The translations under genes were made by a program, and so were the position numbers. From Candidatus Rokuibacteriota bacterium (GTDB lineage Bacteria; Methylomirabilota; Methylomirabilia; Rokubacteriales; CSP1-6), in the NCBI GenBank assembly GCA_016200085.1, contig JACQFL010000048.1:15350-79349 (forward strand): a DNA stretch of 64,000 bases, read 5' to 3'. The stretch's first letter is position 1. Each line of letters opens with the position of its first letter. The notes below the pieces were generated by a model, which was not told the DNA's origin, ran no database searches, and saw only the letters and a program-made list of their open reading frames with translations. Below, one piece after another: positions 5,034-61,186 of the stretch.

Positions 5034-6188
5034 ATGGTTCTGCCGCTCGCGGGTTTGATGCACGTCGTGGTTCTTGCGCGTCGCCTTCTGTTGAAAGTCG
5101 CCACGGTGTTGGTCCTCCTTCCGGCGCTTGCCATCAGTCCCGCATTCGCGCACGACGGTCCCCCCGCTGGCGCCGTCGTACCCAGCGAGCGCATCGATCC
5201 GCGCCAGGTCTATCCCTTCGGCGTCGTCGCCGGCGGGGGCGGACACTTCCACGTCCTGCAGGTCATGCCAGGGGAGCGACGCGTCTTTGCCGGCACCCAT
5301 CTGGGGCTGTTCGTGAGCGAAGACCGAGGGCTCACGTGGCGTCTCGTCGCGCCTCGCTTCAGCGGCGTCGACGTCCACGGCCTCGCACGCGATGCGGCCA
5401 CGGGAGCGTTGTATGCGGCGACCCACGGACAGGGCCTTCTCGTCAGCGAGGACGGTGGCACCCGGTGGCGGGACGGCTCGGCGAGCCTGCCCGGCCGCGA
5501 CCTGCACGCCCTCGCCCTCGATGCCCATGATCGGGGCACGATCTACGTCTGGTCCGTTGGCCATGGTCTCTTCGCTCGGCGAGGTCGCGTGCGGATGTGG
5601 GAACGCCTGGCGGGGCGAGAGGCCCTCACCCAGGTGGAGAGCCTCGCCATCCATCCACAGAATTCGCGGCGGCTCTACGCGGGAACCGCGGCCGGGGTGC
5701 TTGTCAGCGAGGACGGCGGCCGCCGGTGGATGCTACCGCCCGGCGGCCTCGAGCGTCGGACCGCCGGCGTCGCGGTCGTCCCGAGCCGGCCTGACATGGT
5801 CCTCGCCGCGACGTTCGACGGGGTCTTCGCCGGTCACGCAGCCGGCGCGGACTGGAAGCCGCTCGAGGCAGCGCCCTCGTGGTGGGGCCCGATCGTGGGG
5901 TTCGCGTTCGTCGGCGATCGGCCCGACACCGTCTTTGCCGTCTCGCACGAGGGACCGGTCGTCATGCGCGCGGTGTGGGATGGCCCCTGGATACCTCTCG
6001 CGGCGCGACCGCCGGCCACGAGTCGGCGAATCAGCGCCCGCCCTTCGGGGCCGGTCCACGAGCGCGGACCAACCGCAGTGGTGAGCACCCGGCCGTCACG
6101 GCCGATCAAAACCACGGTGGGCGTCGCCCGGACGCCATACGCCCGGGCGACCCGCATGTCGGGATCGAGCACCACGGGAGCGCTGTAG
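5034..6188 (+). CDS. BNR/Asp-box repeat (sialidase-like / Ycf48-like beta-propeller) secreted protein. The 3' end is uncertain.
   Basis: Repeated SxDxGxTW motifs (SEDRGLTW, SEDGGTRW, SEDGGRRW). Signal peptide (...KVATVLVLLPALAISPAFA). A TTG about 57 nt downstream of the ATG is an alternative start. The tail beyond about 6000 overlaps the convergent TlpA-like gene and may not be coding. Confidence 0.6.
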   Translation: MVLPLAGLMHVVVLARRLLLKVATVLVLLPALAISPAFAHDGPPAGAVVPSERIDPRQVYPFGVVAGGGGHFHVLQVMPGERRVFAGTHLGLFVSEDRGLTWRLVAPRFSGVDVHGLARDAATGALYAATHGQGLLVSEDGGTRWRDGSASLPGRDLHALALDAHDRGTIYVWSVGHGLFARRGRVRMWERLAGREALTQVESLAIHPQNSRRLYAGTAAGVLVSEDGGRRWMLPPGGLERRTAGVAVVPSRPDMVLAATFDGVFAGHAAGADWKPLEAAPSWWGPIVGFAFVGDRPDTVFAVSHEGPVVMRAVWDGPWIPLAARPPATSRRISARPSGPVHERGPTAVVSTRPSRPIKTTVGVARTPYARATRMSGSSTTGAL

Positions 6189-6553
6189 CCACGCGCCTTC
6201 ACCTCGCGGGCGACAGTCGTGGCGTCTTCACCGACATCGACGAGCACCGCGGTGAAGCCGTCCGGGGCGAGCTCCTTCGCCATCGCGTCGATCGAGGGCA
6301 ACTCCCTCGCGCAGTGCGGTCACCAGGTGGCCCAGAAATAGAGCATGACGAGATGGCCGCGGAACTGATCCAGCGACACCGTGTGCCCGGTGACGTCGCG
6401 CAGGCTGAAGGCCGGCGCCGTCACGGGCTCGGCCGCGGGCGCCACCCCCAGCGCGTCCCACAGCGCCGAGTCCGTCGTGGCACCCGCCGCGGCGGAGGCG
6501 ACGAACAGGACGCCGAGGACCACACTCGCCCAGGGGGGTCGCCGCGTGATCAC
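5834..6553 (-). CDS. TlpA/thioredoxin-like (redoxin) selenoprotein, periplasmic. In-frame TGA at 6320..6322 read as Sec (U-P-H-C). The 3' end is uncertain.
   Basis: ORFs 6320..6553 and 5834..6301 are in the same frame, separated only by a TGA: ...LVMLYFWATW-U-PHCARELPSIDAMAKELAP...ATPTVVLIGRDGRV. This is the thioredoxin WCxxC motif with the first Cys coded as UGA. Signal peptide MITRRPPWASVVLGVLFVASAAAGA. Confidence 0.65.
6293..6309 (-). other. SECIS-like hairpin downstream of the Sec-UGA of the TlpA-like gene
   Basis: UGA CCG CAC UGC G CGAGGG-AGUUG-CCCUCG. A 6-bp stem with a 5-nt loop, starting 10-11 nt after the UGA. Confidence 0.5.
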
Positions 6554-7134
6554 GCTTGAACCTCCCGCATCGAGTGGGTGGGGCGCGCTCTCACGTCGAT
6601 CGCGAGACGGCTGAGGATCTCGAGCGAGCGATCGTTGAACGGATCCACGCCGGGATTGGCGAGGCGGTGCTCGGCGAGGCGTGTGATCTTTCCCTCCTGG
6701 AGCCGCTCGATCTGGGGAGTGAACGCCTGGAATACCAGATTGACGAACCGCACGAGGCGCGCGTCACCCCGGGTTTCGTCGATGCGAAACCGACGCGCAT
6801 ACCGTTTGAGAGCCGCCCCGCTCTCGTACCGGTCTCCGATCGCCCAGAGGTTCAGGGTGAACAGCGCCTGCGGCCAGCCGTCACGCGCCATGGAGATGGC
6901 GACGAGATGCACGGTGTGATCGGGGAACAGCCTTACCGTGTGGAAATGTCCGGCCTCGTGCGTCGCGCCGTCGTGACGGTGAAAATATGACTGGCAGCCC
7001 GTGTCGCGGTCGAAGACCCCGTAGTCGTCCGGATACAAGGTCCAGGGCGTCACGTCGCGACCGCCGCAGGCGAGCTCCATCACCGTCGTGCCGTCACGCT
7101 CGAGCGCGGTGAGCAGCTGGCGAAGCTCGGTCAT
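6550..7134 (-). CDS. Hypothetical cupin-like protein (HRHDG...EAGHFH His cluster)
   Basis: Internal Met MTELRQLL of ORF 6550..7221. ATGA overlap with the downstream TlpA-like gene. Confidence 0.5.
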   Translation of the reverse strand: MTELRQLLTALERDGTTVMELACGGRDVTPWTLYPDDYGVFDRDTGCQSYFHRHDGATHEAGHFHTVRLFPDHTVHLVAISMARDGWPQALFTLNLWAIGDRYESGAALKRYARRFRIDETRGDARLVRFVNLVFQAFTPQIERLQEGKITRLAEHRLANPGVDPFNDRSLEILSRLAIDVRARPTHSMREVQA

Positions 7135-7150
7135 GGCCCTGGCCACGGGA

Positions 7151-7933
7151 TCAGAGACGGTTGCGCTCGGCACGCTCGAGGCGGAGCCGGTCGGCGCACT
7201 CGAGGAGCGCGTCGTAATCAAGCGCCGACACCAGGCCGAAGACCGCGCGGCCGTCCGTCCACGCCACCGTCCGATAACCCTTCAGGTCTTTCGCGAAGTA
7301 CTCCTGCCCGCGGAAGGTCACAGGTCGGCCGGTCAGGTGCGCGTCGGGGCCGCTGACCGGCACGACGAACACCGACAGGAGCGTCCGGCCCTTCTCGTAG
7401 AAGATGTAGGCCACTTTGCGCTCGTGTGCCTCGGCGAGGCGGCCGCCGATCAACTGGATGCCCGCCGGCGAGTAGTCCGGAACGGCCACGCGAAGGCCGG
7501 CCCGCTGCTGGAACCACTGCTCGAGCTCGCCGCGGTCATTCGAGGCGAGCTCCACGGGCCGCTCGATCTGGGCGTAGGCGATGTGCTTGTCGACGAGCTC
7601 GGCCAGGAGCGGGGCGGAGGGCCGGCTCGCGGGCAAGAGGACCGCCACGAGGAGCGCCGCCACCGCGGCGGCGAGCGGCGCCACGAGCCAGGGGCGCCAC
7701 GCGACGCGGCGCTGCTCGCGGCGCACGAGCGCGGTGATCTTCGCGCGGAACTCCGGCGACGCCGCTTCCCGGGGCTGGCGGCGGAGGACCTCGCGGAACT
7801 GGCGCTCGCGCCCGAGGAGACCGGCGCAGTCCCGGCACCCCGCGAGGTGCGCGTCCGCCGCCGCCATCGCCTCCACCGGCAACTCGCCATCGAGGTAGGG
7901 ATGCACGCTCGCCGCGAATTCTCTGCAGCTCAT
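7151..7933 (-). CDS. Anti-sigma factor: zf-HC2 (HxxxCxxC) N-domain, one TM segment, periplasmic C-domain
   Basis: MSCREFAASVHPYLDGELPVEAMAAADAHLAGCRDCAG... 4-nt overlap with the upstream ECF sigma gene. Confidence 0.8.
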   Translation of the reverse strand: MSCREFAASVHPYLDGELPVEAMAAADAHLAGCRDCAGLLGRERQFREVLRRQPREAASPEFRAKITALVRREQRRVAWRPWLVAPLAAAVAALLVAVLLPASRPSAPLLAELVDKHIAYAQIERPVELASNDRGELEQWFQQRAGLRVAVPDYSPAGIQLIGGRLAEAHERKVAYIFYEKGRTLLSVFVVPVSGPDAHLTGRPVTFRGQEYFAKDLKGYRTVAWTDGRAVFGLVSALDYDALLECADRLRLERAERNRL

Positions 7934-8523
7934 TCCTCGTCCCTCACGTATCCATGCTCGCGCGCCAGCCGCGTGAGGGCCTGCCGCAGCAGGTGCCGGC
8001 CCCGCGACAGGCGGGACATCACGGTGCCCACCGGGCAGCCGACGACGTCGGCGACCTCCCGATAGCTGAGGCCCTCGAGGTCCACGAGCACCACGGCCTC
8101 GCGGAACACCAGGGGCAGGCCTTTGAGCGCCCGATCGACGTCACCATGCAGGACGGTCTGGAAGAACGCTTCCTCCGGGTTGACGAACCCCATCGACGTC
8201 GCGCTGGGCTGGCCGGTCTCCCACACGGCCGCATCGGGCTCCAGGACCTCACGCCCGTCCTTGCGCAGCCGATTCAGGAACACGTTTCTGAGAATCGTGA
8301 GGAGCCAGGCGCGACAGTTGGTCCCCGGGTTGAACCGGTGAAAGTTGCGGAACGCCCGCAGCACCGCCTCCTGGACCACATCCTCGGCCTCCCCCCGGCT
8401 GCGCGTCAGACGAAGCGCCGTCTGGTAGAGCGTCTCGAGATGGACGAGGGCCGTCCGCTCGAACTCGCTGCCCTCCGATGCCGCGGTCCGCCAGGGAATC
8501 GGAAACCCTCCTGTCGTGAGAAC
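7930..8523 (-). CDS. ECF (sigma-70 family, RpoE-like) sigma factor
   Basis: Regions 2 and 4 are recognisable (LVHLETLYQTALRLT..., LPLVFREAVVLVDLEGLSYREVADVVGCPVGTVMSRLSRGRHLLRQ). The GTG at 8523 is a guess. The ORF extends to 8682. Confidence 0.7.
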   Translation of the reverse strand, partial: VLTTGGFPIPWRTAASEGSEFERTALVHLETLYQTALRLTRSRGEAEDVVQEAVLRAFRNFHRFNPGTNCRAWLLTILRNVFLNRLRKDGREVLEPDAAVWETGQPSATSMGFVNPEEAFFQTVLHGDVDRALKGLPLVFREAVVLVDLEGLSYREVADVVGCPVGTVMSRLSRGRHLLRQALTRLAREHGYVRDEE

Positions 8524-8566
8524 ACCACGACCCGCGCGGATATTCCGGCCTCGGGGGTGGCCCCGC

Positions 8567-9655
8567 TCAGGGAGCCGTACCGAGGATCGTCGTCGGGTGA
8601 AACGCCGCCCAGGCGAACCAGAACGCATCGACGTGAGGGATCGCACGCAGCCGGCGTCCCGCCAGCGGCCCCTTGACCCCACGGCCGAGCAGGTTCCAGG
8701 TCGTGCCGGTCTCCCGGTCGCGGAAGCCCCCCTCGTTTGCCTCGAATGTCAGGCTCTTTCCGTCGAGCATTCGACTGTAGACGGCGGTGGCGCCGACCGC
8801 GCGCGACCGCTCGATCCGCGCATCGTCGAGCGCCGAGAGGGCGCCCGGCTGAAAGAAGATCACGAGCGCCTCGCGGTCGATGGCGTCGTGCAGCACCCGC
8901 CGCTCGGCCAGAATCGGCCAGGGGTACGCCTTGGCCGTCTCGCCGATCTTCACGCCGACCACGCGCTCCTTCGGTGGCCGACGCGTATCCGGCCGACCGT
9001 TGAAGAGGAACGGACGAAGCTCCGGCTGATCGTATGACCCGTAGGGATTGGCGCCGTACTGGCGCTGGTGTCCCGTCTCCCGCGACAGGACCTTGCCGTC
9101 CGGGTGGGCCGCCTTCCAGTCCGCGAACGCGATCGTGTTGGCGGGCACCAGCGCGAGCCGCGTCCCCGCACGCTGGCCGACGAGGGCCCGACCTTCCATC
9201 TGCGCCCAGAGCGAGTGGCTCTGACGGTCGTACATGACGAGGTCGCTCTTGTACACCTTGCCCGACGTCCCGAAGTCGAGCGTCACGTCTCCGACCACCC
9301 GGTCGAACGCGATGCCCGAGTTGCGCAGCGGACAGAAGGTCACGACGACAGGCTTGCCCCCGACGGTGTCGTTCACGATCTCGTGCCACATGAGAATCTG
9401 GAGCGGATACGCCCGCGCATCGCCGTTGATCTCCAGCGCGAGCACGGGCTCCTGGGGCACCAGCCACGCGGCTTGACGCGCGGCGATGAACGCCGGTCGA
9501 TCGATCGCCGGGATGCCGTCTGGAGGCGGGCCGCCGGGGATGATCTCGTCGAGCGGGACCAGCGCCTTGCTCTCGTCGGTCCTGAGCCGCTCGGCGGTCG
9601 CCGCCGAAGCGATCAGGACGGTCAGCGCCACCATGATCGGTACGCGTTTCAACAT
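8567..9655 (-). CDS. DUF3179 family secreted protein
   Basis: Internal Met MLKRVPIMVALTVLIASAATA of ORF 8567..10048. Confidence 0.6.
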   Translation of the reverse strand: MLKRVPIMVALTVLIASAATAERLRTDESKALVPLDEIIPGGPPPDGIPAIDRPAFIAARQAAWLVPQEPVLALEINGDARAYPLQILMWHEIVNDTVGGKPVVVTFCPLRNSGIAFDRVVGDVTLDFGTSGKVYKSDLVMYDRQSHSLWAQMEGRALVGQRAGTRLALVPANTIAFADWKAAHPDGKVLSRETGHQRQYGANPYGSYDQPELRPFLFNGRPDTRRPPKERVVGVKIGETAKAYPWPILAERRVLHDAIDREALVIFFQPGALSALDDARIERSRAVGATAVYSRMLDGKSLTFEANEGGFRDRETGTTWNLLGRGVKGPLAGRRLRAIPHVDAFWFAWAAFHPTTILGTAP

Positions 9656-24797: not shown

Positions 24798-24827
24798 GAC
24801 CCCGCGAGGTGTATACTCCGGAGAGTC

Positions 24828-24915
24828 GTCGTGGGGGGAGGAATCCTGAGAACCGGGTGCGGCCCGGGACCCCTCGAACCTGCTCTGGATAATCCCAGCG
24901 AAGGGAACACGCCGA
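24828..24915 (+). promoter_or_regulatory. TPP (THI-box) riboswitch upstream of thiS
   Basis: ggggaggaatcCTGAGAaccgggtgcggcccgggACCCctcGAACCTGctCTGGATAATcCCAGCGaAGGGAA. The CGGCCGCGGAG immediately 5' of the thiS ATG can pair with an upstream GGCCGCG element, which would sequester the Shine-Dalgarno sequence. Confidence 0.85.
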
Positions 24916-24980
24916 CGGATCGCGGCCGCGCCCGAAGTCTCGGGACAGCGGCCGTTGCTGTTTCCGGCCGCGGAGCGGGC

Positions 24981-25182: not shown

Positions 25183-25965
25183 ATGTACGACACGTCGCTC
25201 GTCATCGGCGGCAAGGAGTTCTCGTCGCGGCTGATCGTGGGCACGGGCAAGTACTCGTCGAACGAGGTCATGCGCCAGGCCCACGAGGCCTCGGGCGCCC
25301 AGGTGGTCACCGTCGCGGTGCGCCGGGTGAGCCTGCCGGGCACCGGCGAGTCCATCCTCGACTTCATCGACACCAACCGCTACACGCTGCTCCCGAACAC
25401 CGCCGGCTGCTACACCGCGGACGAGGCCATCCGCACCGCGTACCTGGCGCGCGAGGCCGGGCTCGGCGAGATGGTCAAGCTCGAGGTCATCGGCGACTCG
25501 CGCACGCTGTTTCCCGACGTGGCCGGGCTGCTCGAGGCGACGAAGACGCTGGCGCGCGAGGGCTTCACGGTCATGCCCTACACCAACGACGACCCCGTGA
25601 TGGCCAAGCGCCTGGAAGACGCGGGGGCGGCGGTGGTCATGCCGCTCGGCGCGCCGATCGGCTCCGGGCTCGGGATCCGCAACCCGTACAACATCAAGAT
25701 CATCCTCGAGACCGTGTCGGTGCCCGTCATCGTCGATGCCGGGGTCGGCACGGCCTCGGACGCCGCCATCGCCATGGAGCTCGGCTGCGACGGCGTGCTC
25801 ATGAACACGGCCATCGCGGGCGCGCGCGACCCGGTGGCCATGGCGACGGCGATGAAGCAGGCCGTGGAAGCCGGACGGCTCGCCTTCAAGGCCGGGCGCA
25901 TGCCCAAGCGCCTCTACGCGAGCGCGTCCTCGCCGCTCGAGGGCGTGCCCGATTGGTCGAGCTGA
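25183..25965 (+). CDS. thiG: Thiazole synthase ThiG
   Basis: [24 protein letters not shown]... a full-length ThiG match. Confidence 0.9.
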
Positions 25966-49139: not shown

Positions 49140-49559
49140 TCACCTCGCGGGCGTGCCCGCCGCGCGGCCCTCGACGGGGTAGCCCTTCTCCTGCCAGCCC
49201 GGCAGGCCCTCGTCGAGCACCTTGTGGTTCCGCCACCCCATCGCGTACAGCATGTTGCTGGCCCCCCGGGACAGCGCGTGGGGGCAGCCTCAGTAGAAGA
49301 CGGCGAGCCCCGTCTTCGTGATCTCGCCGGCGCGCTCGGGCACCGCGCGCAGCGGCATCGAGCGCGCGCCCTTGATGTGCAGCTCCGCGTACTCGGCCCA
49401 GTGGCGCACGTCGATGATGTCCGCCTTCGTGCCCGCGGCGAGGGCGGCGTGCAGCTCGGCGACCTTGATGAAGGCCACGGGGGACTCGGGCGGCGCCGCG
49501 GGCGCGGCGCCCAGCAGCACGCCGGCCGCGGCGAGCACGGGGATCAGGGTGCGGCGCAT
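49140..49559 (-). CDS. Periplasmic single-domain rhodanese (sulfurtransferase) selenoprotein. In-frame TGA at 49290..49292 at the active-site Cys position (VFY-U-GCPHALSRG).
   Basis: Signal peptide MRRTLIPVLAAAGVLLGAAPAAP. The rhodanese core (ADIIDVRHWAEYAELHIKGARSMPL...) runs up to the TGA. The same frame continues for 49 more codons through the rest of the domain (GASNMLYAMGWRNHKVLDEGLPGWQEKGYPV) to a TGA at 49140. It sits between two TldD/PmbA-like genes with 4-nt gaps. Confidence 0.65.
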
Positions 49560-49563
49560 GGGG

Positions 49564-58897: not shown

Positions 58898-59692
58898 ATG
58901 CTGCGCGGCACGATCTCGCGGTTCTTCGCCAACGACGGCTTCTTCCTGGCCGCGGGACTCTCGTTCTTCTTCCTGATCTGCGTGATCCCGCTCGTCCTGA
59001 TCGGGGTCTCGACGGTCGGCTTCGTGCTGTCCAGCGAGCAGGCGACCCACGCCGTCATCGGCCAGCTCGTGCGGAACTTCCCCGTCTACCGGCACGAGAT
59101 CGAGCGAGCGATCCTGCGCATCGTGCAGACGCGCCGCGCCTCCGGCCTGGTGGGCACCGCGATGCTGGTGTTCTTCTCCACCCCCATCCTCGGGGCCTGC
59201 CGGCTCGTGCTGCACCGGATGCTCGGCGTGCGGGGAACGCGAGGCTATCTCCGCAATCTCCTGGTGGACGCCAGCATCGTCCTCATGCTGGGCGTGCTGC
59301 TCTTCGCGGGCACGATCGTGATCTGGACGGCGGACTGGCTCCAGGCCTTCGTGCTGGAGCCGGCCCGGGTGCCCGGGCGGTGGATCGACGCCGCCCAGAA
59401 CGGGGTCAGCCTGCTCCTGTCGATCTGGATGTTCTATCTCGCCTACCGCTTCGTGCCCCAGCGCCAGCCCCGCAAGGCCGCCGCCCTGGCGGGCGCCGTC
59501 CTGGCCGCGGTGCTGTGGGAGATCGCCAAGCAGCTTTTCCGGATGTACATCCGCAACGTCGGTATCTACGACCAGATCTACGGCACGCTGGGGGTGCTCG
59601 TGGCCTTCGTGATGTTCGTCTACTACTCGGCCATGGTGTTCGTGCTCGGCGCGTCGTTCGTGGCCTCGGTCGAGGCCCGGCGCCGCGGGTGA
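58898..59692 (+). CDS. YihY/BrkB (ribonuclease BN-like) family inner-membrane protein
   Basis: FFLAAGLSFFFLICVIPL ... 6 TM segments. Confidence 0.75.
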   Translation: MLRGTISRFFANDGFFLAAGLSFFFLICVIPLVLIGVSTVGFVLSSEQATHAVIGQLVRNFPVYRHEIERAILRIVQTRRASGLVGTAMLVFFSTPILGACRLVLHRMLGVRGTRGYLRNLLVDASIVLMLGVLLFAGTIVIWTADWLQAFVLEPARVPGRWIDAAQNGVSLLLSIWMFYLAYRFVPQRQPRKAAALAGAVLAAVLWEIAKQLFRMYIRNVGIYDQIYGTLGVLVAFVMFVYYSAMVFVLGASFVASVEARRRG

Positions 59693-59707
59693 GAGGAGGG
59701 TCCTGCC

Positions 59708-60232
59708 ATGGAGCGCACCCCCGAGGGGCTCGACCACACGGTGACGAGCCGGGACATCACCTTCGAGGCGGACGTCACGTCGGTGACCCCGTTCCTGAAG
59801 CTCGCCACGGTGAGCCGCGGCGGCGGTGATCACATGACGTTCGCGTGCGACGAGGGACCGAGCCTCGGCGGGCTGGGCTCGGCGCCCACGCCGCTGATGT
59901 ATTTCAGCGCCGCCCTCGCCTTCTGACTCATGACCCAGGTGTCCCGGTACGGGCACATGCTCAAGGTCGAGGTGACGCGCATGCGCATGCGCGTCCGGGC
60001 GCATTACCGCGTCACGGGGTCGGTCCTGAACGACACGATCGAGGGGGAGATGGTCGGCGCCGACACCATCCTGGAGCTCGAGTCGCCGGCGCCGCCCGAC
60101 CAGGTCGCCCGGGTGATCCGCAACGCGGAGCGCGGCTGCTTCGTCATGCAGGCGCTGCTGAAGCCCGTGCCCGTGGCCGCCACGACGGTGCTGAATGGCC
60201 AGGCCCTGCCGGCGCGACGCGACGCGTTGTGA
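59708..60232 (+). CDS. OsmC/Ohr-family peroxiredoxin-like selenoprotein. In-frame TGA at 59924..59926 at the first conserved Cys (SAALAF-U-LMTQV).
   Basis: ORFs 59708..59926 and 59930..60232 are in the same frame with only a TGA between them. The second conserved OsmC Cys is present (AERGCFVMQAL). Confidence 0.6.
59939..59956 (+). other. SECIS-like hairpin downstream of the OsmC Sec-UGA
   Basis: UGA CUC AUG ACC CAG GUGuCCCG-GUA-CGGGCAC. The stem has one bulge, the loop GUA contains a G, and it starts about 12 nt after the UGA. Confidence 0.4.
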
Positions 60233-60274: not shown

Positions 60275-61186
60275 ATGGTGCTCAAGGACAAGGTGGCGGT
60301 GGTGACGGGCGCGGCGCGAGGCATCGGCCGCGAGATCGCGCTGCTGATGGCGCGCCATGGCGCGCGGGTCGTGGTCAACGACTACGGCGGCTCCGAGTCG
60401 GGGCAGGGCGGCGCGAAGGCGCCGGCCGACGAGGTCGTCGGCGAGATCAAGTCCGGCGGCGGCGAGGCGGTCGCCAGCTACGACAGCGTCGCGACCATGG
60501 CGGGCGGCCAGAGGATCGTGCAGACCGCGCTCGACGTCTTCAAGCGGATCGACATCGTCGTCAACAACGCCGGCATCCTGCGCGACCGGATGATCTTCAA
60601 CATGACGGAGGAGGAGTGGGACGCCGTCATCGACACTCACCTCAAGGGCACCTTCGCGGTGACGCGGGCGGCGGCCCCGCTCATGCGCGAGCAGCGCTCG
60701 GGCCGCTTCATCAACATGACGTCCACCTCGGGGCTGGTGGGCAACGTCGGCCAGGCGAACTACGCCGCGGCCAAGCTCGGCATCGTGGGGCTCACGAAGG
60801 TCGTCGCGCTCGACATGGCGCGCTACAACGTGACCGCCAACTGCATCTCGCCGTTCGCGTGGACGCGGATGATCGGCACAATCCCGACCACGACCGAGGC
60901 GCAGTCGTCGCGCGTGGAGAAGATCAAGAAGATGTCGCCCGCCCACATCGCGCCCGTGGCCGCCTTTCTCGCCACCGATCAGGCCAAGGACATCACCGGG
61001 CAGGTCTTCGGCGTCCGCGGCAAGGAGATCATGCTCTTCGGCCACATGCGCCCGATCATGCGCGTGCACCACGCCGACGGCTGGACGGTCGATCGCATCG
61101 CCGAGATGTTCCCGGGCACGCTGCAGCACCACCTGGTGCCGCTGGAGACCAGCGGCCAGTATTTTGATTACGATCCGCTCGTATGA
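60275..61186 (+). CDS. SDR family oxidoreductase (MFE-2/HSD17B4 dehydrogenase-domain-like)
   Basis: VTGAARGIGR ... NNAGILRD ... YAAAK. Confidence 0.8.
   Translation: MVLKDKVAVVTGAARGIGREIALLMARHGARVVVNDYGGSESGQGGAKAPADEVVGEIKSGGGEAVASYDSVATMAGGQRIVQTALDVFKRIDIVVNNAGILRDRMIFNMTEEEWDAVIDTHLKGTFAVTRAAAPLMREQRSGRFINMTSTSGLVGNVGQANYAAAKLGIVGLTKVVALDMARYNVTANCISPFAWTRMIGTIPTTTEAQSSRVEKIKKMSPAHIAPVAAFLATDQAKDITGQVFGVRGKEIMLFGHMRPIMRVHHADGWTVDRIAEMFPGTLQHHLVPLETSGQYFDYDPLV

What the first reader, a model, noticed from the sequence alone, without database searches (positions are those of the whole stretch)
59708..60232. OsmC/Ohr-family protein with UGA in place of the first conserved (peroxidatic) cysteine
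ORFs 59708..59926 and 59930..60232 are in the same frame and adjacent. The junction reads ...PLMYFSAALAF-U-LMTQV..., the OsmC block AALAxCF with C replaced by UGA. The second conserved Cys (RGCFVMQ) is retained downstream. A bulged hairpin with a GUA loop starts about 12 nt after the UGA. The ATG annotated as the start of the second ORF lies immediately 3' of the UGA. A conventional annotation would therefore call two tiny fragments and miss the selenoprotein.
Basis: partly seen in the sequence, partly recalled or inferred. Interest (0 to 1): 0.8.

Follow-up and report, generated by a model that had tools for sequence, protein, structure and literature searches.

The report
OsmC-like selenoprotein gene, known family
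The two small adjacent reading frames are one gene for an OsmC-like redox protein whose first active-site cysteine is replaced by selenocysteine encoded by UGA; this is a real but already catalogued selenoprotein family, so the finding is correct and ordinary.

Summary
ORFs 59708..59923 and 59927..60232 are one reading frame, interrupted only by TGA at 59924-59926. Only the joined protein passes Pfam OsmC (48.4 bits, cutoff 27.5). It scores 167.7 bits (cutoff 95) on NCBIfam NF041052, "OsmC-related (seleno)protein". The TGA column aligns with the first conserved Cys of five solved OsmC-like structures and of Cys-form homologs from Alphaproteobacteria and Burkholderiales. The second Cys (C144) is kept. 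TGA is present in 116 of 116 related loci, almost all Rokubacteria/Methylomirabilota, with conserved protein sequence on both sides.

A hairpin lies 12 nt after the TGA. It has a 6-bp stem and a CGGUAC loop, and it fits the published bacterial SECIS consensus. Its 5' arm holds the four most constrained synonymous sites of the gene, and one stem pair covaries (U·G, U-A, G-C).

The family (motif UxxT, COG1765) was described in 2005, and Methylomirabilota are reported as selenoprotein-rich. No Sec machinery lies in the window. Peroxidase activity is inferred, because this subfamily lacks the usual activating Glu.

Verdict: interpretation supported, already known, low interest.

The parts
59695..59699 (+). 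Shine-Dalgarno GGAGG, 8 nt upstream of the true start codon
   Evidence: Read directly from the sequence. No purine-rich motif precedes the internal ATG at 59930 (59910-59929 = ccgccctcgccttctgactc).
59708..60232 (+). Complete selenoprotein coding sequence: 174 codons including Sec73, plus a TGA stop at 60230-60232
   Evidence: Same-frame translation. Pfam OsmC scores 48.4 bits over residues 56-157 only when the ORFs are joined. NCBIfam NF041052 scores 167.7 bits over residues 19-164. The N-terminus M..PEGLDP is conserved in orthologs.
59924..59926 (+). UGA codon read as selenocysteine (Sec73), motif U-L-M-T (UxxT)
   Evidence: TGA in 116 of 116 related loci. The column aligns with Cys in 3CJE, 2ONF, 2OPL, 1VLA and 9WO1 and in L033, L034 and L042.
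59930..59932 (+). Internal Met75 codon, which gene callers wrongly use as the start of a 100-aa fragment
   Evidence: ORF list. Most database homologs are 95-100 aa fragments beginning MTQV. No SD sequence lies upstream.
59936..59959 (+). SECIS-like hairpin: lower pairs 59936-37/59958-59, G·A mismatch, 6-bp stem 59939-59944/59951-59956, apical loop CGGUAC 59945-59950. There are 18 nt between the UGA and the loop.
   Evidence: Alifold consensus. Pair 19-30 occurs as UG 34, UA 11, GC 8; covariation 0.069 against 0.026, reached by 0 of 500 shuffles. The four lowest synonymous entropies of 66 four-fold codons lie in the 5' arm, p = 2.8e-4. It meets the published bSECIS constraints at -8.9 kcal/mol.
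60137..60139 (+). TGC codon of Cys144 (ERGCFVMQ), the second conserved (resolving) cysteine
   Evidence: Invariant in alignments A1 and A3 and in 34 of 34 codon-aligned orthologs. It aligns with the second Cys of 3CJE, 2ONF and 1VLA.

Best explanation
Window 59708..60232 (+) is a single gene for a 174-residue OsmC-like thiol/selenol redox protein of the curated family NF041052, the YhfA/COG1765-like branch of the OsmC/Ohr superfamily.

Shown here:
- The UGA at 59924-59926 sits at the position of the first catalytic cysteine of the OsmC fold.
- That codon is conserved as TGA throughout a large Rokubacteria/Methylomirabilota clade.
- It is followed by a conserved hairpin under RNA-level selection.

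Inferred:
- During translation, SelB with Sec-tRNA(Sec) binds the hairpin that starts 12 nt downstream (6-bp stem, GG/GU-containing apical loop).
- This inserts selenocysteine at the UGA instead of terminating.
- The selenolate of Sec73 attacks a hydroperoxide or other oxidised substrate.
- The resulting selenenic acid is resolved by Cys144 into an intramolecular selenenylsulfide.
- That bond is re-reduced by a dithiol donor, lipoyl- or thioredoxin-type.
For: - Frame and junction.
- The Pfam OsmC domain spans the UGA; the joined protein scores 48.4 bits against a 27.5 cutoff, and each fragment alone fails.
- NCBIfam NF041052 'OsmC-related (seleno)protein': 167.7 bits against a cutoff of 95.
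- TGA in 116 of 116 related loci, with conserved residues on both sides.
- Cys at the same column in homologs from Alphaproteobacteria and Burkholderiales, and in PDB 3CJE (E = 2.7e-20), 2ONF, 2OPL, 1VLA and 9WO1.
- Second Cys invariant.
- Hairpin: alifold consensus, covarying pair 19-30 (Fisher p = 1.3e-5), frozen synonymous sites in the 5' arm (p = 2.8e-4), and a fit to the published bSECIS constraints.
- TGA is a normal stop in this genome, ending 35 of 48 GC3-supported ORFs, so a recoded genetic code is excluded.
- SD before ATG 59708 and none before ATG 59930.
- Two more in-frame TGAs in the window lie inside redoxin and rhodanese domains at their active-site positions.
- Literature: OsmC-like selenoproteins with motif UxxT, COG1765 (PMC1088965); a Methylomirabilota MAG with 63 predicted selenoprotein genes (PMC13188914).
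- In 32 of 89 related loci a Prx-like gene with its own in-frame TGA is adjacent.
Against: - No tRNA-Sec, SelA, SelB or SelD lies in the 64-kb window or in the fetched flanks. The decoding machinery is therefore assumed from the lineage, not shown.
- The hairpin is not thermodynamically unusual. The bSECIS consensus is passed by a quarter of random UGAs here.
- Covariation rests on one stem pair plus an optional loop-closing pair, within closely related sequences. Phylogenetic inflation is therefore possible.
- Rfam gives no SECIS hit.
- For the chemistry, the Glu at -9 from the catalytic Cys in 1VLA and 2OPL is Met here and Ala in 3CJE. YhfA-type proteins, which lack the Arg and Glu, have no demonstrated peroxidase activity (PMC8945050).
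- One metagenome contig carries TCA (Ser) at the codon.
- No experimental data exist for this clade.
Confidence: 0.92

Rival explanations
1. The TGA is a genuine stop. Either there are two separate small genes, or only the C-terminal 100-aa half is expressed, starting from ATG 59930.
For: Gene callers produce exactly this: hundreds of 95-100 aa database entries. TGA is the usual stop codon in this genome. No Sec machinery is seen in the window.
Against: - Neither fragment alone reaches the Pfam threshold, and the OsmC domain spans the junction.
- The catalytic Cys column falls exactly on the TGA.
- No SD sequence precedes ATG 59930, whereas GGAGG precedes ATG 59708.
- The codon is TGA in 116 of 116 loci, never TAA or TAG, and is always in frame with no indel between the halves.
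- The N-terminal half is under purifying selection, with variation at synonymous sites only.
- No ortholog has a stand-alone C-terminal half.
Confidence: 0.03
2. UGA is read through as a standard amino acid (Trp, Cys or Gly), by near-cognate decoding or a variant genetic code, rather than as selenocysteine.
For: One database entry translates the codon as W (P0004). Sec machinery was not observed directly.
Against: - P0004's codon is TGA and the W is a gene-caller artefact.
- 35 of 48 ORFs in the window terminate at TGA, including Pfam-confirmed genes, so TGA is not generally reassigned.
- The column is Cys, Sec's natural counterpart, in all Cys-form homologs.
- A conserved downstream hairpin under RNA-level selection is the signature of SelB-dependent recoding.
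- The family is curated as a selenoprotein family.
Confidence: 0.03
3. The gene is a pseudogene inactivated by a nonsense mutation, or the TGA is a sequencing error.
For: Truncated remnants of this gene exist in some MAGs (L037, L038, L041). One contig has TCA at the codon.
Against: The same TGA occurs in 116 independent assemblies. Both halves are intact and conserved, with no frameshift or second stop.
Confidence: 0.01

Closest known systems
NCBIfam NF041052 'OsmC-related (seleno)protein', equivalent to the OsmC-like selenoprotein family of Zhang, Fomenko and Gladyshev 2005 (COG1765, motif UxxT)
   Same: - The full-length match is far above the curated cutoff (167.7 against 95 bits).
- Sec sits at the first conserved Cys, with motif U-L-M-T matching UxxT.
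- Cys-form homologs exist.
- A bacterial SECIS lies directly downstream in the coding region.
   Different: Nothing defining differs. This copy comes from a soil or groundwater Rokubacteria/Methylomirabilota lineage, whereas the family was first described from the marine Sargasso Sea data. In the clade sampled here every member examined (116 of 116) is the Sec form.
PDB 3CJE, 'OsmC-like protein' (structural-genomics entry); also 2ONF (Ta0195), 2OPL, 1VLA (T. maritima OsmC)
   Same: 3CJE matches the profile at E = 2.7e-20 over residues 10-157. It shares GLTG-C-VMTQ against AF-U-LMTQ, KKG-C-F against ERG-C-F, and the DEG..GG..SAP.PL motif.
   Different: All solved relatives carry Cys, not Sec. 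No function has been assigned to 3CJE. 1VLA and 2OPL have a Glu at -9 from the catalytic Cys, which is Met here.
Ohr/OsmC thiol-dependent organic hydroperoxide reductases (E. coli OsmC, Xylella and Pseudomonas Ohr)
   Same: They share Pfam superfamily PF02566. They also share two conserved Cys that form an intramolecular disulfide after peroxide reduction and are recycled by lipoylated proteins (PMC8945050). The same two positions are occupied here by Sec73 and Cys144.
   Different: Sequence similarity to canonical OsmC/Ohr is too low to reach them by profile search of the PDB. The activating Glu is not conserved, and probably the Arg is not either, as in the uncharacterised YhfA class. Here the first Cys is Sec.
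E. coli fdhF-type bacterial SECIS and the bSECIS consensus model
   Same: The hairpin lies in the coding region directly after the UGA. It has 18 nt between the UGA and the apical loop (allowed range 16-37), a 6-bp upper stem, a 6-nt loop with G in the second position followed by G, and an energy of -8.9 kcal/mol.
   Different: The primary sequence is unrelated, and no bulged U is required by the comparative data. SelB binding is untested.

Membership tests
OsmC/Ohr superfamily (Pfam PF02566) | Domain match above the Pfam gathering threshold | tested here: met
   The joined protein scores 48.4 bits against a 27.5 cutoff, over residues 56-157 and profile positions 2-98 of 100. The fragments alone score nothing and 22.9 bits.
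OsmC/Ohr superfamily (Pfam PF02566) | First conserved (catalytic) Cys on the long helix | tested here: met
   The column is occupied by UGA (Sec). It aligns with Cys of 3CJE, 2ONF, 2OPL, 1VLA and 9WO1 and of the Cys-form homologs L033, L034 and L042.
OsmC/Ohr superfamily (Pfam PF02566) | Second conserved (resolving) Cys | tested here: met
   Cys144 in ERGCFVMQ is invariant. It aligns with the second Cys of 3CJE, 2ONF and 1VLA.
Canonical Ohr/OsmC peroxidases | Activating Glu (and Arg) next to the peroxidatic Cys | tested here: not met
   The Glu at -9 from the Cys in 1VLA and 2OPL is Met here and Ala in 3CJE. The Arg could not be mapped without coordinates. YhfA-type proteins are reported to lack both residues (PMC8945050). 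The gene is therefore filed with the YhfA/COG1765-like branch, not as a canonical Ohr or OsmC.
Canonical Ohr/OsmC peroxidases | Hydroperoxide reductase activity, homodimer, lipoyl-dependent recycling | not testable with these tools
   Needs biochemistry. It is inferred only from superfamily membership.
NCBIfam NF041052 OsmC-related (seleno)protein | Whole-protein score above the curated cutoff | tested here: met
   167.7 bits against 95, residues 19-164 on profile positions 2-144 of 144.
OsmC-like selenoprotein (Zhang et al. 2005) | Redox motif UxxT | tested here: met
   U73-L-M-T76. The motif is listed in PMC1088965 and PMC13188914. One relative, L076, has UxxS.
Bacterial selenoprotein gene (general criteria) | In-frame UGA conserved among orthologs, with conserved coding sequence on both sides | tested here: met
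   116 of 116 loci.
Bacterial selenoprotein gene (general criteria) | Homologs with Cys aligned to the UGA | tested here: met
   L033 and L034 (about 50% identity), L042, P0002, and the PDB relatives.
Bacterial selenoprotein gene (general criteria) | bSECIS hairpin directly downstream that meets the consensus constraints | tested here: met
   Spacing 18 nt, 6-bp stem, loop CGGUAC, -8.9 kcal/mol. The specificity is weak, because 25% of all UGAs in the window pass.
Bacterial selenoprotein gene (general criteria) | Evolutionary support for the RNA structure | tested here: met
   One covarying pair (UG, UA, GC), with 0 of 500 shuffles reaching the observed score. Synonymous sites in the 5' arm are frozen (p = 2.8e-4). 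The support is modest: one pair, in closely related sequences.
Bacterial selenoprotein gene (general criteria) | Sec-decoding machinery (selC tRNA-Sec, selA, selB, selD) in the same genome | tested here: inconclusive
   None lies in the 64-kb window or the fetched flanks. The rest of the genome is not available. The lineage is reported as selenoprotein-rich, and two further in-frame-TGA redox genes lie in the window.
Bacterial selenoprotein gene (general criteria) | Selenium physically present in the protein | not testable with these tools
   Needs 75Se labelling or mass spectrometry.

The most novel reading that the evidence does not exclude
In this Rokubacteria/Methylomirabilota clade the OsmC-like protein may be an obligate selenoenzyme; no Cys form was found among 116 loci. 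Selenocysteine would substitute for the missing Arg/Glu activation of the YhfA-type active site. That would give real peroxidase or disulfide-relay activity to a branch of the superfamily whose Cys forms have no known activity. It might act together with the Prx-like selenoprotein encoded directly upstream in about a third of relatives, forming a two-selenoprotein detoxification module.
Probability: 0.15. Interest if true: 0.4.

Novelty: already known. Interest (0 to 1): 0.15.

Why it matters
The practical value is mainly for annotation. This gene and hundreds of its relatives sit in public protein databases as 95-100 aa C-terminal fragments labelled 'hypothetical' or 'OsmC-like'. Their catalytic residue and N-terminal half are missing. 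Recognising the UGA as Sec restores a complete redox enzyme.

The window holds at least three such genes in 64 kb. That fits recent reports that Methylomirabilota carry the largest bacterial selenoproteomes. Nothing here changes the understanding of Sec decoding or of the OsmC/Ohr superfamily. The biochemical function of this YhfA-like branch remains open.

Tried and rejected
- Single-sequence folding of the post-UGA region is not more stable than shuffles (z = -0.8 and -0.6). It is rejected as evidence on its own.
- A permissive Rfam search of 59880-60020 found no SECIS family. It gave only noise hits on a downstream palindrome.
- The 36 genome-derived sequences alone showed no two-sided covariation. 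The metagenome scan was needed. It returned only close relatives (73-83% identity), so more divergent Sec forms were not reached.
Pairs 20-30 and 22-28 break without compensation in 19 and 13 of 60 distinct sequences. It is energetically equivalent in the window sequence (-9.1 against -8.9 kcal/mol).
- The lower stem from the single-sequence MFE (G9-C39 and neighbours) is not conserved; column 39 is G in most orthologs.
- Synteny: none of the window's neighbours (BrkB-like membrane protein, SDRs) flanks the gene elsewhere. No operon partner can be inferred for this copy.
- Sec machinery: a search over about 40 ORFs of the window and ARAGORN on the window and 42 loci found nothing.
- A strict contiguous-stem bSECIS test failed to score the hairpin. 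It was replaced by a relaxed version with a matched background.
- Structure prediction was not run. Sequence-level matches to five solved OsmC-like structures already settle the fold, and the tool returns no coordinates for measuring the Sec-Cys distance.

Full report
**Observation**

The region was read and translated. An ORF opens at ATG 59708, preceded by GGAGG at 59695-59699. It runs to a TGA at 59924-59926. The frame then continues through CTC (Leu) at 59927-59929 and ATG (Met) at 59930-59932, and ends at a TGA stop at 60230-60232. The junction reads ...PTPLMYFSAALAF-[UGA]-LMTQVSRYGHMLK..., and ERGCFVMQ follows with Cys144 (TGC, 60137-60139).

The ATG is one codon after the UGA, not immediately after it. 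Otherwise the description is accurate.

**Family**

- The joined protein (U written as C) matches Pfam OsmC (PF02566) at 48.4 bits against a cutoff of 27.5. The match covers residues 56-157 and so spans the UGA. The N-terminal fragment gives no OsmC hit, and the C-terminal fragment scores 22.9 bits, below threshold.
- NCBIfam gives a decisive hit: NF041052, "OsmC-related (seleno)protein", 167.7 bits against a cutoff of 95, covering the whole 144-position profile. The family is already curated as one whose members may contain selenocysteine.
- The closest solved structure is 3CJE, "OsmC-like protein" (phmmer E = 6.9e-11; family profile E = 2.7e-20).
- In 3CJE, 2ONF, 2OPL, 1VLA and 9WO1 the UGA column aligns with a Cys.
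- The second Cys aligns in 3CJE, 2ONF and 1VLA.

**Comparative evidence for recoding**

- A protein search returned 620 homologs. Most are 95-100 aa entries covering only the C-terminal ~55% of the query and beginning MTQV. That is the footprint of gene callers stopping at a conserved TGA.
- A genome scan gave 42 loci, nearly all Rokubacteria/Methylomirabilota MAGs. A metagenome scan gave 80 more.
- Counting the window, 116 of 116 sequences that cover the column carry TGA. The flanks are conserved (GSAPTPLMYFSAALAF | LMTQVSRYGHMLK), and there is no indel or second stop between the halves.
- Homologs at about 50% identity from Alphaproteobacteria (L033, L034: SVGF-C-ALTQ) and one at about 30% from Burkholderiales (L042) carry Cys. 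So does P0002.
- The "W" in P0004 is a TGA that the gene caller translated as Trp.
- P0001 really has TCA (Ser), on a single 1.9-kb contig whose downstream hairpin sequence is otherwise intact.
- TGA is an ordinary stop in this genome, ending 35 of 48 GC3-supported ORFs. A reassigned genetic code is therefore excluded.

**The RNA element**

On its own the hairpin is unremarkable. Fold energies have z = -0.8 and -0.6 against shuffles, and Rfam gives no hit. I implemented the published bSECIS constraints from PMC13188914: a loop of 3-9 nt, a stem of 4-16 bp, G in the first two loop positions followed by G or U, 16-37 nt between the UGA and the loop, and energy of -7.5 kcal/mol or lower. The element passes, with spacing 18 nt, a 6-bp stem, loop CGGUAC and -8.9 kcal/mol. 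However, 25% of all UGA trinucleotides and 10 of 35 ordinary TGA stops in this 72% GC window also pass.

The persuasive evidence is evolutionary.

- There are 66 four-fold-degenerate codons with a conserved amino acid across the gene. The four with the lowest third-position entropy are codons +3, +5, +6 and +7 after the UGA, which form the 5' arm of the stem. Their entropies are 0-0.53 bits against a median of 1.13 bits elsewhere (Mann-Whitney p = 2.8e-4).
- These codons are also atypical for the gene. Gly is GGG where GGC dominates elsewhere, and Ser is TCC.
- The one variable stem position covaries. Alignment column 19 (window 59942) pairs with column 30 (59953) as U·G (34), U-A (11) or G-C (8) among 60 distinct sequences. 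C occurs at column 30 only with G at column 19, and A only with U. Fisher p = 1.3e-5, and 0 of 500 shuffles reach the observed covariation score.
- A C22A change usually comes with C27U. This adds an A-U pair that closes a GGUA or GAUA tetraloop.
- Alifold independently picks this unbulged register.

The caveat is that this is one covarying pair in closely related sequences, so phylogenetic inflation cannot be excluded.

**Context**

- The window is 71.7% GC.
- The gene sits between a BrkB/YihY-like membrane protein (58898-59692) and an SDR (60275-61186).
- None of these neighbours flanks the gene in other loci.
- In 32 of 89 related loci with enough flank, an AhpC/TSA-like gene lies within 2.5 kb. 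It carries its own in-frame TGA (YRGRW-U-PYC) and is usually directly upstream on the same strand. That links the family to peroxide and thiol chemistry. The window copy lacks this partner.
- No tRNA-Sec, SelA, SelB or SelD is present in the window or the flanks. For 64 kb of a multi-megabase genome this is uninformative, but it leaves the machinery unshown.
- Two other in-frame TGAs in the window fall at the active-site positions of a redoxin/TlpA-like protein (FWATW-U-PHC) and a rhodanese-like protein (VFY-U-GCPH). In both, the Pfam domain spans the TGA. Both are followed by hairpins that pass the same consensus test.
- This fits the report that a Methylomirabilota MAG has 63 predicted selenoprotein genes (PMC13188914, citing Deng et al. 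2026).

**Mechanism**

Shown here:
- A single ORF with a conserved UGA at the catalytic-Cys column of an OsmC fold.
- A retained second Cys.
- A conserved downstream hairpin under RNA-level constraint.

Inferred from established knowledge of bacterial Sec decoding and of Ohr/OsmC chemistry (PMC8945050):
- SelB with Sec-tRNA(Sec) binds the hairpin and inserts Sec at residue 73.
- The selenolate reduces a hydroperoxide.
- The selenenic acid is resolved by Cys144 into a selenenylsulfide.
- A dithiol donor regenerates the enzyme.

The chemistry is the weakest step. The Glu at -9 from the catalytic Cys in 1VLA and 2OPL is Met in this family and Ala in 3CJE. The YhfA-type branch, to which the 2005 paper's COG1765 assignment points, is reported to lack the Arg and Glu and has no demonstrated activity.

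**Comparison with the known, and novelty**

OsmC-like selenoproteins were described in 2005 from the Sargasso Sea data: 3 sequences, COG1765, motif UxxT, with a predicted SECIS (PMC1088965). They are listed again in the 2022 and 2026 reviews and modelled by NCBIfam NF041052. This gene has the same motif (U-L-M-T) and scores far above the model's cutoff.

It is therefore a correct rediscovery of a known selenoprotein family in a lineage already noted as selenoprotein-rich. Three minor points go beyond the catalogue. The Sec form is exclusive within this clade. The gene is frequently paired with a Prx-like selenoprotein gene. Public protein databases hold a large number of truncated entries for it.

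**Verdict**

- Observation confirmed, with two small corrections.
- Interpretation supported, with confidence 0.92 that this is a Sec-containing OsmC-like protein and roughly even odds that it is specifically a hydroperoxide reductase.
- Novelty: already known.
- Interest: 0.15.

Noticed in passing
window ~5837-6766 (-), TGA at 6322..6320: A second probable selenoprotein gene. The read-through protein ...LVMLYFWATW-U-PHCARELP... matches Pfam AhpC-TSA (89.3 bits) and Redoxin (89.1 bits) across the TGA, with a UxxC motif. A 6-bp hairpin with an AGUUG loop lies 16 nt downstream. The gene lies downstream of an ECF sigma factor (7933-8748), a zf-HC2 anti-sigma protein (7154-8140) and DUF6969 (6553-7281), all on the minus strand.
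   Followed up: partly
window ~49140-49560 (-), TGA at 49292..49290: A third probable selenoprotein gene. It encodes a rhodanese-like protein with ...TGLAVFY-U-GCPHALSRG... at the active-site loop. Pfam Rhodanese scores 53.4 bits, spanning the TGA. The gene sits between two TldD/PmbA-like genes.
   Followed up: partly
L005-L035, L064-L118 (e.g. L123:1-584): In 32 of 89 related loci an AhpC/TSA-like gene with its own in-frame TGA (YRGRW-U-PYC) lies within 2.5 kb of the OsmC-Sec gene. It is mostly directly upstream on the same strand, giving a recurrent pair of selenoprotein genes. The pair is absent from the window.
   Followed up: partly
L037:~6001-6165, L038:~6001-6159, L041:~6001-6084: Truncated C-terminal remnants of the OsmC-Sec gene (28-59 residues). 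They lack the N-terminal half, the UGA and the SECIS. In L037 and L041 they sit right after the Prx-like selenoprotein gene, so they look like decayed copies.
   Followed up: no
L123:601-1110 (protein P0001): One metagenome contig carries TCA (Ser) instead of TGA at the Sec codon, while the downstream hairpin sequence is unchanged. It could be a recent Sec-to-Ser mutation or a sequencing error. P0003 (Leu at this column) was not checked.
   Followed up: partly
window 59974-59995 (+): A perfect 22-nt palindrome, GACGCGCATGCGCATGCGCGTC, lies inside the coding region and encodes T-R-M-R-M-R-V. It forms a strong hairpin just 3' of the SECIS. It is not conserved in orthologs and accounts for the Rfam noise hits.
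   Followed up: no
L005, L014, L019, L038 (MAG JBKPAK01, GB_HAYS_MAG_00007): One MAG carries three full copies of the OsmC-Sec gene on different contigs, plus one remnant. These are either true paralogs or co-assembled strains.
   Followed up: no
window 24824-24924 (+): A TPP riboswitch (Rfam RF00059, 56.3 bits) lies upstream of thiG at 25183-25965.
   Followed up: no
L006 and L031: Two loci with the same Sec gene are labelled Limnocylindria (Chloroflexota) and Nitrospirales rather than Rokubacteria. This could reflect horizontal transfer or mis-binning of MAG contigs.
   Followed up: no
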